A DNA stretch of 64,000 bases from a phage, in the sequence record PZ445451.1; one strand, 5' to 3'. A program made the translations under genes and the position numbers. Each line of letters starts with the position of its first letter. Position 1 is the first letter of the stretch. Positions 39,821 to 44,354 of this stretch are shown here, in pieces. The notes under the pieces were generated by a model, which did no database searches, had not been told where the DNA came from, and saw nothing but the letters and a program-made list of their open reading frames with translations.

Positions 39821-40435
39821 TTAAATCTTAAATTCTTCGTTGTTAAGTGAATCCAGTGTACGTACTTCTGGTTCTTTGGGGATGAAAACGTCTTTTACAA
39901 AGCGGAACATAGGGAAACGTTCTGCCATTTTACGGACGTGTGCTTCTTTACCTGTGTAGCGGTGATTAATAGTACAAATATTAGTTTTCAGCGCAAATTC
40001 AAAATCTGGATGATATACATAATTTTGACCATCCCAGTAACACAGGCAAATAGCTACGTCAAAGTTCCATACGATTTCACTGCGTACACCTTCTTCCATG
40101 ATCATAAAGTTAAACTTAAGATCTTTATAGTATGCTTCAAATACCCATTTCAAATGTGGTAGTTCGGCATAAGTGTGTTCTGTTTGCTTAGTAAGTTGTT
40201 TAACATTACGTGCACCAACACCCAACATCAAAAATTTCTCTACTAGTACGAGTGTATTGTGGTTAGGCATACGCAAGTAAATATCAATATCTTGCGCAGG
40301 TTTCTCTAATCGCCAATCACGTACAGCGCCGCCAGCTACAATTGCAAACGGATCTACCAGTTGGCACATACGTAATACTTCTAAAGCTCGTACTTTTTGA
40401 TCTTCAATATTCATATTTTCTCCTATCGTTTCCAC
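39821..40435 (-). CDS. Minimal nucleotidyltransferase related to the CCA-adding enzyme / poly(A) polymerase head domain
   Basis: 204 aa; motif FAIVAGGAVRDW...DIDIYL matches the pol-beta-type NTase signature of CCA-adding enzymes (GGaVRD...DhDh); far shorter than full-length CCA enzymes. Confidence 0.55.
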   Translation of the reverse strand: METIGENMNIEDQKVRALEVLRMCQLVDPFAIVAGGAVRDWRLEKPAQDIDIYLRMPNHNTLVLVEKFLMLGVGARNVKQLTKQTEHTYAELPHLKWVFEAYYKDLKFNFMIMEEGVRSEIVWNFDVAICLCYWDGQNYVYHPDFEFALKTNICTINHRYTGKEAHVRKMAERFPMFRFVKDVFIPKEPEVRTLDSLNNEEFKI

Positions 40436-41010
40436 TCTTTGTGTTGTTCTACATGCTCAAGCATTTCATTATATAGTGCTTTAAGATGTGGAACAACTCT
40501 TTCATCTTCAGTTTCAAAGAATTTTGTAAGCTGCTCTGCTTTAGCTTTCAACCAGCAAAGATGCGCTTCAATTTCAGTATTAAAACGTCCCAGCGTTTTT
40601 ATGCGACTGTCTACTTTTATATTGGCTTTGTATTTATTACGATCTTTTTCGTAACTACATCCCACCATAGTCCCATGAGATCTTTTACTTACTCTATAAG
40701 CTAAGAACTTATTAAGATCTCCTGTTACTAAAAGACAGGTATTGGGAGAGTAAACTCTCCCTCCTATAATATCTTTATCAAGTTCTAAGTTTTCCCAGTC
40801 ATCCCAAGTTTGCAACCAGGAATAGAAATTGGAGAACAACTTCCATTCTTCACAAACTGTCACCCCATTATAACAAGGATCACGTTCTTGTTGACAAGGG
40901 GAGTAACACCTCCCCAACATAGACATCCATTTCATATAAGCAGGGTGCATAGTTCCTCTAGGAGATCTTACAGTAAAATCTCCATCAAAAATACCATGAC
41001 CATATACCAT
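40423..41010 (-). CDS. Putative homing endonuclease with AP2-like DNA-binding domain
   Basis: 195 aa; AP2-like block (KYKANIKVDSRIKTLGRFNTEIEAHLCWLKAKAE); Cys/Trp-rich N-terminal region; free-standing gene directly downstream of the polymerase. Confidence 0.4.
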   Translation of the reverse strand: MVYGHGIFDGDFTVRSPRGTMHPAYMKWMSMLGRCYSPCQQERDPCYNGVTVCEEWKLFSNFYSWLQTWDDWENLELDKDIIGGRVYSPNTCLLVTGDLNKFLAYRVSKRSHGTMVGCSYEKDRNKYKANIKVDSRIKTLGRFNTEIEAHLCWLKAKAEQLTKFFETEDERVVPHLKALYNEMLEHVEQHKEWKR

Positions 41011-41039: not shown

Positions 41040-44000
41040 CTAATGACAACTGGCCCATGAGTTACCAACATCGTACCCAGCAGTGAGAGGTACATTAAGA
41101 TTGTAATACTCACCAGCTTTATTAACAGCGATAGATGCTAATTCTCCAGCACGACTGTAGGCTGTAAACCAACCACCTTTCGGAGATTCATGTACGTTCG
41201 CCCAAATCTTGCCAGTACGTTTCTCTTCCTCTTCTTTCCAGGCATTAACTTTATCCAAACATTCTTTATCAATTTTCTTTTGTTCTTCTGGATCATCAAC
41301 TTGAGTCCAACCTAAAGATTCTTTAGAGAACCATTTAAAATGCACCAGATCACGAGTTACTTCAAGTTGTGCTTCATCGTGATATGCAATCATTTGTTGA
41401 ACGAATGACTTATTTTTCCAGTCATCAACAAAAAAGTCAACAGCTAATCCTTCTTCTTCGATAAGATCGTCGTAGATAACCATTGCTCTTTTTGCACAAA
41501 TAACACCACCACTCTGGAACAGAGAGTTAAGTATTGCGTGTGCAGATCGTGTAGGTACTTTTCTACCATCAATACCGAGAATGTATTTCTTACCTGTTTT
41601 AACCCAAAAGTCATGCAGACGTTCTTTAAGAAGCGCAAGAGGTTTTGCAGCTTCCCAGAAAGCATCGTATACAAGCTGTCCTGTATACATATCACTACCT
41701 ATAGTTTTTGCTACTTTTGCAGCTTGAGCACCATAAGTAATACCATACTTAACAGATTTAGCAGGGCTTCGTTCAAACTTACGACCAATAGTGTCAGAAA
41801 TACGTCGAGCCATCATTGTATGAACATCATTAGGTTTTTCCAATAATAGAGCATTACAATATTCGTGTGGTTCCTGCTCGTACCGCCAACAATTCCCTGT
41901 AATCGTGATGCAGTCTTTCTGACGCATAACCCATGTACCGAGTTCTGTTTGTGGACACCAAACATCTTCTACACCCCATTCTTCAATAGTCAGACTTTGA
42001 ACAGGGATGTGAGAGCGGTTAGCCAACGTTGCCACTTTTACTTTCTGGTCTTTCGTATTGAAGGCTACAGAAATATTACCCCCATGAACCAGGTATGAGG
42101 CAGTTAAGGCTGCTTCAAAAAGTTCTCCTGGGTTCTGCGCCCAGCGCCAAACAGGTTTTTGTTTATGTTTGTGCCAGTAACCATCCGCAATCAAAAAACC
42201 TTCCAAGAAAGCCACACGCTCGGCATGAGACATATTAACTACACGTTCTACCCACGGAACATCCCATTTACCTTGTTGAACAGAAGTTAAACTATTTACT
42301 TGATCTTGTTCCATGTTAAATGGAGCATTACAAATAATGTTATCTCCTGTGCAAAGCTCGGCAGTTGTTCTGACTTTAGGCACATAAGTATTCCCTGTAC
42401 TACGAGTATTAACATACCAACGGTGATCTGCTGTTGCACGATAAGTATGGGATTTTCCTTTAATCTCAAACGTCTTACTATTTTTATAGAAGACCTTACC
42501 TTTTACTTTAGTCCATTCTTTAAGTCCTGTTTCTGGGTTATATCCTAAGATTTCATCCCCTTCTTGTAGATCGTGATAACCAACCCAACCTTTACGGGTT
42601 AGTGCTTGTGCATCCATAGGTACACAGTAGTGTGATTCTATTTTTGCCTCAAGAGAATCAAAGTCATAACCAATTTGGAAGTATTTTGGAACTTCTACAC
42701 CAAATAAGTTACGCATTTCATATCCGTACAGAGATGTTACACGTGGGATATTTGCTACTAACCTATGTTTCATACGAGATGTAGCTGCATCACACGTTGC
42801 AGCAGGAGTTGGTATACGACCATCAGCCCTTACTGCTGCCAGATAACCTTTATCGTAATCCTCTTCATCTTCTTCCCAATCAGCACCACCACCTAGAATA
42901 GAGTTCCTACGGTGTTTATACGTAAGATACTGCACAATCTGCGTAGCATAAGGAAACTTTTCACCCAGTGCTTCCAAGTTAGGACAAATATCTTTCTCTT
43001 GCCCTTTTGTAAAGGAAGGGTTCGTAAGCACTTTAACACCACGACCTTTAGCTTTAGCAATACGATCTCTTAGTTTCCATTCCAAAGTTTCTGGTGTGCA
43101 CTCCAGATGATCACATCTGTCCTGGCAGAAGTTAGATGCTAACGTTTGATCAACATAGTCACGAATAGCTTTCTCCATTTGTGCTTCATCTTTCTTAATC
43201 TTAGTGCCAGATTTAAGAGTGATATCTTTATCTTTGTATTCAGATGGACTCCAACCTAAACCAACTAACCAGTTTTTAATATGTGTAGTGTCGTCTAAAG
43301 TAGCAGGTACTGTAGGATCACAAATAGGTTCTTCTGCTGGAATAGGGAGTTTAAACTCTTTACCTAAAGCAAATAACCACCAACCATCTTCTTTTTGTAC
43401 AAGTTCACCAGAATGTTTCTCTGCAAACTTTATCATGTTACTTGAAGGTTCACCATTCTTTTTAAACTGTAGTTTAGGTGGAATGAATGATTTCAAATAA
43501 CCTTTGGTAGCAGGTTTAGGAGGTAGCACAGGTTCTGCCTCTAAACGACATGCTTCCATTCGAGCATCCAGATCACGAATATTATCTTCTGCTTGTTTCA
43601 TATTGAAAGCAAAGCCACGGTGCTCTTGACGTGTAATAATATCAGCTACACGTTGTTCTAAGTTAAATGGTTCAGACCACTTATTATAATCACCCCACTC
43701 TTCCATCAAATAACGGAACACTGCGGTGTTAGCTTTGTTATCGTAAATACAGTAATACAGCATATCTGCTGCAAATGTTTTAAATCTTTCAGTTTCAGGG
43801 ATGTTTTTTCTAAAATCAATTTTAACATCCCCTCCAGCTTTCTTAGATAACTCTGCCAGACTATGACCACCGAAGCGATCAGGGTTTAGTGTCTTACTTA
43901 AGATCATAGTATCACAAATTTCAATGTTACTATTACCCCAAGTATTGTACTTAATACTGTAGTTGAGTTTAAAAAATAATTTAATTGCCAGTAAGTCGAA

Positions 44001-44354
44001 GTTAATGATGTTGTGTCCAACTACTTTGGTAATTTTATAGTTTGAATTACCTTTAAATTTACCTGTTCCATTTACAAAATCAGGAAAATCTTTAAGAGGG
44101 AAATGGGTATATTCTAAATGCTCATATTCCTCCAATCGGTATTCATACTTTCCGTCAGTCTCAATATACGGACGACCATCGAAAAGATATTTATCACCAT
44201 CATGGAAAGCAATAATCTCTCCAGTATCATGACTTTCGCACACAATACAGTGCATTGCAAAACTATCTTTTAAACGATATGGACTTGCCAAGTAATCTAC
44301 ACTTTCGTCATTAAGCAAGTTGTTACTTTCAATGTCGAAAGTAAAAGCTCCCAT
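41040..44354 (-). CDS. DNA polymerase, family A (3'-5' exonuclease + polymerase), intein-containing
   Basis: Exo I FDIES and Exo II HNIINFD motifs; motif A DFDSLEAKIESHY interrupted right after HY; motif B-like KSVKYGITYG; motif C-like YHDE; strong AAGGAGGG RBS. Confidence 0.8.
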   Translation of the reverse strand: MGAFTFDIESNNLLNDESVDYLASPYRLKDSFAMHCIVCESHDTGEIIAFHDGDKYLFDGRPYIETDGKYEYRLEEYEHLEYTHFPLKDFPDFVNGTGKFKGNSNYKITKVVGHNIINFDLLAIKLFFKLNYSIKYNTWGNSNIEICDTMILSKTLNPDRFGGHSLAELSKKAGGDVKIDFRKNIPETERFKTFAADMLYYCIYDNKANTAVFRYLMEEWGDYNKWSEPFNLEQRVADIITRQEHRGFAFNMKQAEDNIRDLDARMEACRLEAEPVLPPKPATKGYLKSFIPPKLQFKKNGEPSSNMIKFAEKHSGELVQKEDGWWLFALGKEFKLPIPAEEPICDPTVPATLDDTTHIKNWLVGLGWSPSEYKDKDITLKSGTKIKKDEAQMEKAIRDYVDQTLASNFCQDRCDHLECTPETLEWKLRDRIAKAKGRGVKVLTNPSFTKGQEKDICPNLEALGEKFPYATQIVQYLTYKHRRNSILGGGADWEEDEEDYDKGYLAAVRADGRIPTPAATCDAATSRMKHRLVANIPRVTSLYGYEMRNLFGVEVPKYFQIGYDFDSLEAKIESHYCVPMDAQALTRKGWVGYHDLQEGDEILGYNPETGLKEWTKVKGKVFYKNSKTFEIKGKSHTYRATADHRWYVNTRSTGNTYVPKVRTTAELCTGDNIICNAPFNMEQDQVNSLTSVQQGKWDVPWVERVVNMSHAERVAFLEGFLIADGYWHKHKQKPVWRWAQNPGELFEAALTASYLVHGGNISVAFNTKDQKVKVATLANRSHIPVQSLTIEEWGVEDVWCPQTELGTWVMRQKDCITITGNCWRYEQEPHEYCNALLLEKPNDVHTMMARRISDTIGRKFERSPAKSVKYGITYGAQAAKVAKTIGSDMYTGQLVYDAFWEAAKPLALLKERLHDFWVKTGKKYILGIDGRKVPTRSAHAILNSLFQSGGVICAKRAMVIYDDLIEEEGLAVDFFVDDWKNKSFVQQMIAYHDEAQLEVTRDLVHFKWFSKESLGWTQVDDPEEQKKIDKECLDKVNAWKEEEEKRTGKIWANVHESPKGGWFTAYSRAGELASIAVNKAGEYYNLNVPLTAGYDVGNSWASCH
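41892..42626 (-). mobile_element. Intein (about 245 aa) with LAGLIDADG homing-endonuclease motif in the polymerase motif A region
   Basis: Starts with Cys after ...IESHY (CVPMDAQALTRKGW); block B TADHRWYV; LAGLIDADG-like VAFLEGFLIADGYW (about 42180-42209); ends ...ITITGN followed by Cys; extein resumes CWRYEQEPHEY...DVHT, aligning with family A sequence after motif A. Confidence 0.7.

What the first reader, a model, noticed from the sequence alone, without database searches (positions are those of the whole stretch)
41892..42626. Intein with LAGLIDADG motif inserted in motif A of the family A DNA polymerase
Polymerase motif A (DFDSLEAKIESHY) is followed by about 245 residues that begin with Cys, contain a Hint block-B-like TADHRWYV and a LAGLIDADG-like FLEGFLIADGYW, and end in ...ITITGN before Cys. 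Only after this does the expected post-motif-A sequence resume (CWRYEQEPHEY...DVHT). The predicted C-terminal residues are GN rather than the canonical HN, implying a non-canonical splicing chemistry or a variant intein. At 245 aa it is small for an endonuclease-bearing intein, so the endonuclease may be degenerate.
Basis: partly seen in the sequence, partly recalled or inferred. Interest (0 to 1): 0.6.

Follow-up and report, generated by a model that had tools for sequence, protein, structure and literature searches.

The report
Intein in phage DNA polymerase gene
The phage's DNA polymerase gene is interrupted by a real 245-residue self-splicing protein element (an intein), which the public record of this phage already annotates; it is ordinary in kind but has an unusual mix of catalytic residues and only half of the usual homing endonuclease.

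Summary
Window 42626..41892 encodes 245 residues, Cys1 to Gly-Asn245, followed by Cys+1, inside a 1104-aa T7-like family A DNA polymerase gene (41040-44354). The window is 100% identical to Escherichia phage PaulScherrer (MZ501100), whose record already annotates an "intein-containing DNA polymerase precursor", with the intein shifted by one codon. Six sister phages 98-99% identical in the polymerase gene lack exactly these 735 bases and read ESHY|CWRY. The model has a Hint fold that matches solved inteins. The intein belongs to a large, mostly metagenomic phage family (2255 clusters). In 154 representatives Cys1, His68, Cys224 and Asn245 are invariant, and Thr65, Trp70, Thr243 and Gly244 are each present in 153. 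"GN" is therefore a family hallmark, not a defect. Trp70/Cys224/Thr243 are the WCT triplet of class 3 inteins, here combined with an invariant Cys1; which cysteine starts splicing is unresolved. The approximately 85-residue insert is one LAGLIDADG half-domain. It is under strong purifying selection (dN/dS 0.04), so it is not decaying. The intein is also far less diverged between phage genera than its host gene, which points to horizontal transfer. Verdict: a real intein, already annotated, of moderate interest.

The parts
41040..44354 (-). Precursor gene: intein-containing T7-like family A DNA polymerase, 1104 aa
   Evidence: ORF list. Pfam DNA_pol_A E 7.8e-11 on the C-extein. The spliced sequence aligns to T7 DNA polymerase at E 1.6e-18. 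100% identical to MZ501100 locus bas60_0044, 'intein-containing DNA polymerase precursor'.
42627..44354 (-). N-extein, 576 aa: exonuclease and N-terminal polymerase part, ending in motif A
   Evidence: 99.2% nt identity to the intein-free EmilieFrey allele.
42627..42665 (-). Polymerase motif A, DFDSLEAKIESHY; the first Asp aligns with the motif A Asp of T7 DNA polymerase (GIDASGLELRCLAHF)
   Evidence: That this T7 residue is the catalytic Asp475 is from established knowledge, not a tool result.
41892..42626 (-). Intein, 245 aa, Cys1 to Gly244-Asn245
   Evidence: Translation. Exactly this stretch is missing in six intein-free Justusliebigvirus alleles. Hint fold. Family boundaries are C1 in 154/154, GN in 153/154 and S/T/C at +1 in 154/154.
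42624..42626 (-). Cys1 codon (block A nucleophile)
   Evidence: invariant in 154/154 family representatives.
42417..42434 (-). Block B, TADHRW: Thr65 (B:7), His68 (B:10), Trp70 (B:12, the 'W' of the WCT triplet)
   Evidence: T in 153/154, H in 154/154, W in 153/154.
42012..42266 (-). Inserted single LAGLIDADG half-domain (intein residues 121-205; alpha-alpha-beta-beta-alpha-beta-beta)
   Evidence: AlphaFold2 models (insert-only model has pLDDT about 90 over the core). Ten of the first twelve Foldseek hits are LAGLIDADG-fold proteins: nine LAGLIDADG enzymes (I-CeuI, PI-SceI, I-Vdi141I, bI3 maturase, I-MsoI, I-OnuI and others) plus WhiA, at E 0.025-0.1. dN/dS is 0.04.
42180..42206 (-). The only LAGLIDADG motif, LEGFLIADG (residues 141-149; Asp148 is the expected metal-binding acid)
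   Evidence: A regex scan of all six frames of the window finds only this one. D148 is present in 76% and G149 in 95% of 154 representatives. Weak Pfam LAGLIDADG_3 hit, E 0.084.
41892..41969 (-). Blocks F and G, EDVWCPQTELGTWVMRQKDCITITGN: Cys224 (F:4), Thr243 (G:5), Gly244 (G:6), Asn245 (G:7)
   Evidence: C224 in 154/154, T243 in 153/154, G244 in 153/154, N245 in 154/154. [quoted passage not shown]
41889..41891 (-). Cys+1 codon, the first C-extein residue and second nucleophile
   Evidence: Retained as Cys in the intein-free alleles (ESHY|CWRY).
41040..41891 (-). C-extein, 283 aa plus stop: motif B (KSVKYGITYGA), motif C region, C-terminal His

Best explanation
This is a genuine intein, and almost certainly one that splices, in the DNA polymerase gene of a phi92-like coliphage (the window is phage PaulScherrer).

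The 1104-aa precursor is translated with a 245-aa Hint-domain element wedged directly after polymerase motif A. Inferred mechanism: the Hint domain folds and brings the two junctions together. Cys1, assisted by Thr65 and His68, forms a thioester with Tyr576. The N-extein is passed to Cys+1. Asn245 cyclises and releases the intein. An S-to-N shift then yields an 859-aa polymerase that reads ...ESHY-CWRYEQ..., differing from the natural intein-free EmilieFrey allele at one residue. Asn cyclisation proceeds without the usual helper histidines, because G:6 is Gly and F:13 is Val.

The intein belongs to a large phage family with a fixed signature: Cys1, TxxHxW, VWC at block F, and TGN at the C terminus. 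This adds the class-3 WCT triplet to a class-1 N-terminal nucleophile. I rate Cys1-initiated (class 1) splicing, with Cys224 as an essential active-site helper, at about 0.6. I rate Cys224-initiated (class 3) splicing at about 0.3.

Between the Hint halves sits one LAGLIDADG half-domain. It is maintained by selection. It most likely still supports homing, for example as a homodimer like I-CreI; I rate this at about 0.45. The intein has moved between phage genera.
For: Shown by tool results:
- The window is 100% identical to MZ501100, which annotates an intein.
- Six Justusliebigvirus alleles lack exactly the 735 nt; for EmilieFrey, the one translated, the exteins are 858/859 aa identical.
- The AlphaFold2 model has a Hint fold (pLDDT 84-95 in most blocks of the Hint halves). 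It matches 37 solved Hint-fold chains at E<=1e-3, nearly all inteins plus a few BIL and Hedgehog domains, including class 3 inteins.
- The family has 2255 clusters at E<=1e-3.
- Catalytic positions are invariant or nearly so in 154 representatives.
- A family profile finds solved inteins, the best being the AceL NrdHF class 3 intein at E 3.6e-5.
- The insertion site aligns to T7 DNA polymerase motif A.
- Between PaulScherrer and ESCO5, intein dN/dS is 0.022 and insert dN/dS is 0.04. Against KP13-16, synonymous sites are saturated while pN is only 0.10 in the insert.
- Between genera, intein dS is 0.48 while extein dS is 1.6-4.2. Nucleotide identity is 91.7% for the intein against 73-79% for the exteins.
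- The insert has a LAGLIDADG fold.
- Members of 240-270 aa never carry two motifs, whereas those of 300-400 aa often do.
- P0006 is a natural insert-less version of P0002, so the insert is probably not needed for splicing.

From the literature:
- Penultimate Gly works in a phage intein (PMC5050341).
- Cys is the second commonest residue at F:4 (PMC4031507).
- WCT inteins with Ser1 or Cys1 exist (PMC2807308).

Inferred, not shown:
- Splicing itself. The argument is that the phage is viable although its polymerase active site is interrupted.
- The order of nucleophiles.
- Endonuclease activity.
Against: - There is no experimental evidence of splicing or DNA cleavage for this protein.
- Pfam and NCBIfam models do not recognise the Hint part of this copy. 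Single-sequence matches to solved inteins are not significant (E 0.3-0.7).
- No co-conversion tract or fixed flanking difference separates five intein-plus from six intein-minus alleles.
- The target site shows no palindromy above chance (6 of 11 pairs; 1198 of 2000 shuffles do as well). Neither of these two results supports recent endonuclease-driven homing by a homodimer.
- Foldseek E-values for the insert alone are 0.025 or worse.
- Asp148 is absent in 24% of representatives.
- The class 1 versus class 3 choice rests only on conservation logic.
Confidence: 0.9

Rival explanations
1. It splices by the class 3 pathway. Cys224 (block F:4), not Cys1, attacks the N-terminal junction first and forms a block F branched thioester, which is then passed to Cys+1. 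Cys1 would be dispensable or would have another role, for example a redox-sensitive disulfide with Cys224.
For: - The complete WCT triplet is present and essentially invariant: W70 in 153/154, C224 in 154/154, T243 in 153/154.
- The spacings are as in proven class 3 inteins (PMC5222942).
- 74% of family members have Ser or Thr at +1, which is the class 3 preference (PMC2807308).
- The best profile match among solved structures is a class 3 intein, and class 3 inteins are among the top fold matches.
- PMC5222942 states that class 3 inteins do not require an N-terminal Cys, Ser or Thr, citing Tori and Perler 2011.
Against: - Cys1 is invariant in 154/154 and the class 1 block B Thr65 is present in 153/154. 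If Cys1 were dispensable it should drift, as it has in canonical class 3 inteins.
- This copy has Cys+1, which is rare in class 3.
- By the operational definition, no Cys at the N-end (PMC7891396), it is not class 3.
- Class 1 inteins follow closely in the same profile search.
- Class 1 inteins with Cys at F:4 are known (PMC3196547, PMC4031507).
Confidence: 0.3
2. The intein splices, but its LAGLIDADG half-domain is no longer a nuclease. It would be kept for folding, solubility or DNA binding. The intein would then spread passively by phage recombination, or through breaks made by another enzyme such as the HNH-type endonuclease gene immediately downstream of the polymerase gene.
For: - There is only one motif, where all characterised intein endonucleases that I know of have two (my own knowledge; one motif shown).
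- No co-conversion tract was found and the target is not palindromic.
- 24% of family members lack the motif Asp.
- A free-standing HNH endonuclease-like ORF lies at 40423-41010 (PHROG 953, E 7e-75).
- Polymorphisms are shared between intein-plus and intein-minus alleles, which shows frequent recombination at this locus.
Against: - Purifying selection on the insert is strong (dN/dS 0.04).
- Natural insert-less relatives exist (P0006, P0008, P0009), so the Hint domain does not need the insert.
- Gly149 (95%) and Gln164 (96%) are highly conserved and Asp148 is kept in 76% of the 154 representatives; all three are invariant in the 46- and 21-sequence alignments.
- The small residues Gly143 and Ala147, which LAGLIDADG helices use to pack against a partner helix, are retained.
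- The intein is much younger than its host gene between genera.
- The HNH ORF is present next to both intein-plus and intein-minus alleles and matches only the C-terminal half of its profile.
Confidence: 0.4
3. The 245 residues are an ordinary, non-splicing domain insertion of this polymerase lineage, or a dead intein that stays in the mature protein.
For: No curated Pfam or NCBIfam intein model reaches threshold on this sequence. Splicing has not been observed.
Against: - The insertion follows motif A directly, in the active-site region.
- Homologues 98-99% identical at the nucleotide level lack it exactly, codon for codon.
- It has a Hint fold.
- All splicing residues are invariant across 154 diverged relatives that sit in many different host proteins and sites. 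That pattern is expected only if self-excision is selected.
Confidence: 0.03

Closest known systems
The annotated intein of Escherichia phage PaulScherrer (Bas60), GenBank MZ501100, locus bas60_0044, and the same allele in phi92, PD06, SD2 and others
   Same: It is the same sequence: 100% nt identity over the gene. The product is annotated 'intein-containing DNA polymerase precursor' with mat_peptide features. The BASEL paper says inteins were identified by comparative genomics (PMC8594841).
   Different: The deposited intein feature is shifted one codon 3' (Val2 to Cys+1) relative to the chemically required Cys1 to Asn245. Most sister records, including phi92, PD06, ESCO5 and ZCKP1, call the gene only 'DNA polymerase I' or 'hypothetical protein'. 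No paper in the searched library describes its residues, class or endonuclease.
Class 1 phage inteins with a penultimate Gly, e.g. the mycobacteriophage Bethlehem gp51 (RDF) intein
   Same: A phage-borne, Cys1-initiated intein with Gly instead of His before the terminal Asn. In Bethlehem gp51 the Gly version splices, and G316H causes precursor accumulation (PMC5050341).
   Different: The present family also fixes Trp at B:12, Cys at F:4 and Thr at G:5, and lacks His at F:13. The host protein and insertion site differ.
Class 3 inteins (MP-Be DnaB, Msm DnaB-1, MchDnaB1, AceL NrdHF)
   Same: The WCT triplet is at the same block positions, with the same 21-residue spacing from Cys F:4 to the terminal Asn. 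They share a phage association and a Ser/Thr preference at +1 across the family (PMC2807308, PMC5222942). Like AceL NrdHF, this intein lacks both helper histidines, F:13 and G:6 (PMC7891396).
   Different: Cys1 is invariant here, whereas class 3 inteins are defined by lacking it (PMC2807308, PMC7891396). This copy has Cys+1. The hosts are mainly family A polymerases rather than helicases and terminases. The mechanism is untested.
Intein-borne double-motif LAGLIDADG endonucleases (PI-SceI, PI-PfuI, Tli/Pho VMA inteins) and the related 324-aa intein in motif B of phage nieznany polymerase
   Same: A LAGLIDADG fold is inserted between the Hint halves at the usual position. The nieznany intein shares the C1 / TxxHxW / Cys F:4 / TGN / C+1 signature, and its second motif aligns with the single motif here.
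   Different: There is only one half-domain of about 85 residues instead of two, so any nuclease activity would need dimerisation, as in I-CreI, I-MsoI or I-CeuI. I found no described intein with this arrangement (and my own knowledge).

Membership tests
Intein (Hint-domain protein-splicing element) | In-frame insertion that is precisely absent from otherwise near-identical homologues | tested here: met
   EmilieFrey, ALITA, muut, alia, inny and arall lack exactly 735 nt. EmilieFrey, the allele translated, reads ESHY|CWRY and its exteins are 858/859 aa identical.
Intein (Hint-domain protein-splicing element) | Hint fold | tested here: met
   AlphaFold2 pLDDT is 84-95 in most blocks of the Hint halves. 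There are 37 solved Hint-fold chains, nearly all inteins, at Foldseek E<=1e-3, with TM (target-normalised) up to 0.76.
Intein (Hint-domain protein-splicing element) | N-terminal Cys/Ser nucleophile and block B Thr-x-x-His | tested here: met
   Cys1, Thr65 and His68 are present. In the family they occur in 154/154, 153/154 and 154/154.
Intein (Hint-domain protein-splicing element) | C-terminal Asn followed by Cys/Ser/Thr at +1 | tested here: met
   Asn245 and Cys+1 are present. In the family, N occurs in 154/154 and +1 is S 70, T 44, C 40.
Intein (Hint-domain protein-splicing element) | Penultimate His (G:6); common but not obligatory | tested here: not met
   The residue is Gly244, and Gly occurs in 153/154 of the family. 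Functional inteins without this His are documented (PMC5050341, PMC4031507).
Intein (Hint-domain protein-splicing element) | Actual self-excision with extein ligation | not testable with these tools
   Needs expression followed by Western blot or mass spectrometry. Splicing is inferred from phage viability and from selection on the catalytic residues.
Class 3 inteins | Trp B:12, Cys F:4, Thr G:5 (WCT triplet) | tested here: met
   W70, C224 and T243 are present, in 153, 154 and 153 of 154 representatives. Block positions were assigned from spacing to His68 and Asn245 (PMC2807308, PMC5222942).
Class 3 inteins | No Cys/Ser/Thr nucleophile at intein position 1 | tested here: not met
   Cys1 is present here and in 154/154 representatives. 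The definitions are in PMC2807308 and PMC7891396.
Class 3 inteins | Ser or Thr at +1 | tested here: not met
   This copy has Cys+1, although the family is 74% Ser/Thr.
Class 3 inteins | Obligate Cys F:4 nucleophile and block F branched intermediate | not testable with these tools
   Needs C1A, C224A and N245A mutants and thiol-lability assays.
Class 3 inteins | Sequence kinship with established class 3 inteins (reported to be monophyletic) | tested here: inconclusive
   The best solved match of the family profile is the class 3 AceL NrdHF intein (E 3.6e-5). Class 1 NrdJ-1 and DnaX inteins and BIL domains follow at 3e-4 to 8e-4. The Msm and Mch DnaB class 3 inteins are not found at E<=1.
LAGLIDADG homing endonuclease, intein-type | Two LAGLIDADG motifs (blocks C and E) in one chain | tested here: not met
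   There is one motif only. It aligns with the second motif of the nieznany relative.
LAGLIDADG homing endonuclease, intein-type | Alpha-beta-beta-alpha-beta-beta core fold with an acidic residue ending the motif helix | tested here: met
   The insert-only model has H37-51, E52-57, E60-67, H71-84, E88-92 and E100-105. Its top hits are I-CeuI, PI-SceI, I-Vdi141I, I-MsoI, I-OnuI and I-DmoI, but at E 0.025-0.3. Asp148 is conserved.
LAGLIDADG homing endonuclease, intein-type | Site-specific DNA cleavage of the intein-free allele | not testable with these tools
   Indirect signs are mixed. There is a horizontal-transfer signal, but no co-conversion tract or palindromic target.
Family A (T7-like) DNA polymerase as host | Motifs A and B align with a solved family A polymerase | tested here: met
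   T7 DNA polymerase matches at E 1.6e-18, with motif A and motif B (AKSVKYGITYGA opposite AKTFIYGFLYGA) aligned. Pfam DNA_pol_A scores above its cut-off.

The most novel reading that the evidence does not exclude
This intein may represent a large, undescribed phage intein family (more than 2000 clusters) that is a natural hybrid of class 1 and class 3. Both Cys1 and the block F Cys would be functionally required, and Asn cyclisation would occur without either helper histidine. Such a family would be the kind of intermediate that structural work argued was improbable for the origin of class 3 inteins (PMC7664689). In addition, its single LAGLIDADG half-domain may be an active endonuclease that works as an intein homodimer, an arrangement not described for inteins.
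Probability: 0.3. Interest if true: 0.65.

Novelty: already known. Interest (0 to 1): 0.35.

Why it matters
As an object it is ordinary. An intein in a phage replication gene is expected, and the source GenBank record already annotates this one.

The practical value is corrective:
- Most sister genomes, including the type phage phi92, label the gene simply as polymerase or hypothetical.
- The one detailed annotation is off by one codon.
- A 2024 paper states that no inteins are reported in coliphages (PMC11162368).

The scientific value lies in the family. It has an invariant Cys1 together with the class 3 WCT triplet and a Gly-Asn end, and it occurs in a cultivable E. coli phage that has natural intein-free sister strains. 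That makes a convenient system for three questions:
- Which cysteine starts splicing.
- Whether a one-motif LAGLIDADG domain inside an intein can still drive homing.

At 245 aa, with Cys/Cys junctions, the intein could also interest protein engineers.

Tried and rejected
- Plus-strand reading of the given coordinates gives stop codons. The feature is on the minus strand.
- Curated models: Pfam gives only a sub-threshold LAGLIDADG_3 hit and NCBIfam and PHROGs give nothing for the intein. The family is poorly covered by these libraries; only 4 of 21 members touch PF14890.
- A single-sequence search of PDB sequences gave only E 0.3-0.7. A family profile was needed.
- Co-conversion tract: five intein-plus and six intein-minus Justusliebigvirus alleles share their polymorphisms and have no fixed flanking differences. 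This gives no support for, and no refutation of, recent homing.
- Palindromy of the target site: 6 of 11 pairs, no better than shuffles.
- A partner half-domain elsewhere: there is no other LAGLIDADG-like motif in the 64-kb window. The rest of the 150-kb genome was not scanned.
The equivalence of Gln164 with I-CreI Gln47 therefore remains my inference from secondary-structure position.
- Tori and Perler 2011 (PMC3133030), which tested WCT inteins that have an N-terminal nucleophile, is not held. The supplement of Tori 2010 listing such inteins is not held either. What I say about that work is second-hand (PMC3196547, PMC5222942) or from memory.
- Residue distances in the AlphaFold model (Cys1, Cys224, His68) could not be measured because model coordinates are not exposed.
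- GC content is only slightly higher in the intein (0.415 versus 0.37-0.39), which is not informative.
- The reading 'ordinary domain insertion' was rejected on the intein-free alleles and the Hint fold.
Full report
**1. The observation**

The given coordinates, read on the plus strand, contain stops. On the minus strand they give 245 uninterrupted codons, CVPMDAQALT...CITITGN. These lie inside a 1104-aa ORF at 41040-44354, as residues 577-821. DFDSLEAKIESHY comes before the segment and CWRYEQEPHEY...NDVHT comes after it. TADHRW is at intein residues 65-70, LEGFLIADG at 141-149 and ITITGN at 240-245.

**2. What the window is**

The gene is 100% identical over 3315 nt to Escherichia phage PaulScherrer (Bas60, MZ501100; Stephanstirmvirinae, Justusliebigvirus). 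It is 99.2% identical to phage phi92. The PaulScherrer record already calls the product 'intein-containing DNA polymerase precursor' and carries mat_peptide features for the polymerase and the intein. The BASEL paper states that inteins were identified by comparative genomics (PMC8594841).

The deposited intein feature corresponds to residues 578-822 (Val to Cys), one codon 3' of the chemically required Cys1 to Asn245. The ambiguity arises because a TGT codon sits at both junctions. Most other records with the same allele label it only 'DNA polymerase I' or 'hypothetical protein'.

**3. Is it an intein?**

*Intein-free alleles.* EmilieFrey, a sister phage, has an 859-aa polymerase that reads ESHY|CWRYEQ. 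Its exteins are 858/859 residues identical to those of the window. Five further Justusliebigvirus alleles (ALITA, muut, alia, inny, arall) have the identical 735-nt gap.

*Fold.* An AlphaFold2 model (mean pLDDT 76; 84-95 in most blocks of the two Hint halves) gives 37 solved Hint-fold chains, nearly all inteins, at Foldseek E<=1e-3. They include Ssp DnaB, the Tli and Pho VMA inteins, and the class 3 AceL NrdHF, MchDnaB1 and Msm DnaB inteins.

*Family.* An exhaustive HMMER scan of 1.84 billion cluster representatives finds 2255 clusters at E<=1e-3, 823 at <=1e-10 and 78 at <=1e-30. From the 158 sequences in hand I extracted 154 complete elements. All 154 begin with Cys. 153 end in Gly-Asn. All are followed by Ser (70), Thr (44) or Cys (40).

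*Hosts.* The elements sit in many different host contexts:
- The same motif A site in other polymerases (...HY|TYKYDNG).
- The motif B site (...AKxxxYA|TLYGAG).
- The TGR..|SPN..QIP site.
- Primase-like proteins.
- Small PF19846 proteins.

The only thing that stays constant across these hosts is the element with its junction residues. That is what self-excision predicts.

*Insertion site.* The spliced sequence aligns to T7 DNA polymerase at E 1.6e-18, with GYDFDSLEAKIESHYCWRYE opposite GIDASGLELRCLAHFMARFD. The intein therefore follows motif A by 12 residues after the aligned aspartate. An unspliced polymerase would have its active site split.

Curated libraries miss the Hint part of this copy. 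Single-sequence PDB matches are not significant. A 21-sequence family profile does reach solved inteins.

**4. The GN ending and the catalytic signature**

Gly244 is not a lesion of this copy. It is fixed in the family, in 153 of 154 representatives. Penultimate Gly is documented in the splicing-proficient mycobacteriophage Bethlehem gp51 intein, where G316H causes precursor accumulation. Phage class 1 inteins in general conserve this His poorly (PMC5050341).

Trp70 lies two residues after the block B His. Cys224 is in VWCPxTE, 21 residues before Asn245. Thr243 lies two residues before Asn245. These occupy blocks B:12, F:4 and G:5, and are present in 153, 154 and 153 of 154 representatives. 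[quoted passage not shown] F:13 is Val, so both histidines that normally assist Asn cyclisation are missing, as in the class 3 AceL NrdHF intein (PMC7891396).

Yet Cys1 (154/154) and the class 1 Thr-x-x-His (153 and 154) are also fixed. Class 3 is defined by the absence of an N-terminal nucleophile (PMC2807308) and operationally by 'no cysteine at the N-end' (PMC7891396). On that criterion, membership of class 3 fails.

The literature records three WCT inteins with Ser1 or Cys1 in InBase (PMC2807308). It also records that class 1 inteins with Cys at F:4 exist and are polyphyletic (PMC3196547), and that Cys is the second commonest residue at F:4 (PMC4031507). The key follow-up paper (Tori and Perler 2011) is not held.

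My reading is as follows. The invariance of Cys1 argues that it is used, which favours a class 1 route (about 0.6). A Cys224-initiated route remains open (about 0.3). Sequence kinship does not settle the matter. The best solved match of the family profile is a class 3 intein (E 3.6e-5), but class 1 inteins follow within a factor of ten to twenty.

**5. The insert**

Between the Hint halves lie about 105 residues. Both models give helix, helix, two strands, helix, two strands for residues 121-205. The insert-only model, built with a 46-sequence alignment, has pLDDT of about 90 over this core.

Its best structural matches are almost all LAGLIDADG proteins: WhiA, I-CeuI, PI-SceI, I-Vdi141I, the bI3 maturase, I-MsoI, I-OnuI, I-AniI and I-DmoI. 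The E-values are 0.025-0.3, so this evidence is supportive rather than significant on its own.

There is exactly one LAGLIDADG motif. It aligns with the second motif of a 324-aa relative in phage nieznany, which has two. So the domain is half of the usual intein endonuclease, which explains the small size.

It is not decaying, for four reasons:
- The 240-260-aa one-motif form is the commonest architecture among the representatives, in 107 of 154. This sample is biased towards similarity to the query.
- Gly149 (95%), Gln164 (96%) and Lys120 (87%) are highly conserved and Asp148 is kept in 76%. Asp148, Gly149 and Gln164 are invariant in two sub-alignments.
- dN/dS for the insert between PaulScherrer and ESCO5 is 0.04. 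Against Klebsiella phage KP13-16, synonymous sites are saturated (pS 0.85) while pN is 0.10.
- Natural insert-less relatives exist (P0006 versus P0002; P0008; P0009). The Hint domain therefore does not need the insert, which makes selection for a function of the insert itself more likely.

A single half-domain could cut DNA only as a dimer, as I-CreI does. I found no description of such an intein. I have no direct evidence for dimerisation, and the target site is not palindromic beyond chance.

**6. Mobility**

Thirty-five of the 77 phage records that match the intein protein carry it at 80% or more amino-acid identity. In the nucleotide search with the whole gene, 34 of 122 matching records cover at least 80% of it, that is, include the intein. 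Its presence is scattered among genomes 98-99% identical in the polymerase gene.

Between PaulScherrer (Justusliebigvirus) and ESCO5 (Phapecoctavirus), the intein is 91.7% identical in nucleotides and 97.6% in amino acids. The exteins are 73-79% identical in nucleotides. dS is 0.48 for the intein against 1.6-4.2 for the exteins. The intein was therefore exchanged between the genera after they diverged. In KP13-16 it is as diverged as its host gene.

No co-conversion tract distinguishes intein-plus from intein-minus alleles, so the route remains open. It could be self-homing, general recombination, or breaks made by another nuclease. A free-standing HNH-endonuclease-like ORF lies immediately downstream of the polymerase gene, at 40423-41010 (PHROG 953, E 7e-75). 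It is present beside both kinds of allele.

**7. Comparison and verdict**

As an object it is already known, because it is annotated in the source record. Penultimate Gly and Cys at F:4 both have precedents.

Three things appear to be undescribed in the literature I could search:
- The family-wide combination of an invariant Cys1 with the WCT triplet and Gly-Asn.
- The conserved one-motif LAGLIDADG insert.
- The size and polymerase-centred distribution of the family.

These make it a good experimental system, but they are not a surprise of kind. Interest is 0.35. The most novel reading not excluded is a class 1/class 3 hybrid mechanism together with a dimeric intein endonuclease. I give it probability 0.3 and interest 0.65 if true.

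Noticed in passing
window 40423-41010 (-): The 195-aa ORF directly downstream of the polymerase gene is 'hypothetical protein' in GenBank. It matches PHROG 953 'HNH endonuclease' at E 7e-75, but only profile positions 198-399 of 420, and it has no Pfam hit. It lies beside both intein-plus and intein-minus polymerase alleles. It may be a free-standing, possibly truncated, homing endonuclease acting at this locus.
   Followed up: partly
window 41889-42626 (-); MZ501100 42564-43298: The GenBank mat_peptide 'intein' of PaulScherrer is shifted one codon 3' (Val2 to Cys+1) relative to Cys1 to Asn245. A TGT codon at both junctions makes the alignment-based boundary ambiguous.
   Followed up: yes
L003 (phage nieznany, MN850598) gene 1105-4674, intein aa 633-956: A second, related intein of 324 aa (about 35% identity) has two LAGLIDADG motifs and the same C1 / TxxHxW / Cys F:4 / TGN / C+1 signature. 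It sits in polymerase motif B (KYG|CTYGAQ) and is unannotated. The motif A site in this phage is empty and reads HY|TWRY.
   Followed up: partly
P0002 versus P0006 (metagenomic proteins): These two proteins share the same extein and the same Hint halves, but P0006 lacks the LAGLIDADG insert. It is a natural mini-intein derivative within the family.
   Followed up: partly
family representatives P0010-P0158: The family occupies at least three conserved sites of family A polymerases: after motif A, in motif B, and in TGR..|SPN..QIP. It also occurs in primase-like (SGGGY|CYW) and small PF19846 proteins. Precomputed Pfam annotation is blank for most of them.
   Followed up: partly
window 39821-40435 (-): This 204-aa ORF, annotated hypothetical in PaulScherrer, matches phage nucleotidyltransferase families (PHROG 1614, E 2e-34; weak Pfam PolyA_pol head domain). 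The syntenic gene in ESCO5 and nieznany is annotated tRNA nucleotidyltransferase / poly(A) polymerase.
   Followed up: no
phage database hits to window 41040-44354: Five records labelled as Campylobacter phages, with host given as Campylobacter jejuni, match this coliphage polymerase gene, and four of them carry the intein. This may reflect mislabelled hosts or contaminating coliphages.
   Followed up: no
PMC11162368 (Arch Virol 2024): [quoted passage not shown] The phi92-like and phAPEC8-like coliphages carry this polymerase intein, and two GenBank records annotate it.
   Followed up: yes
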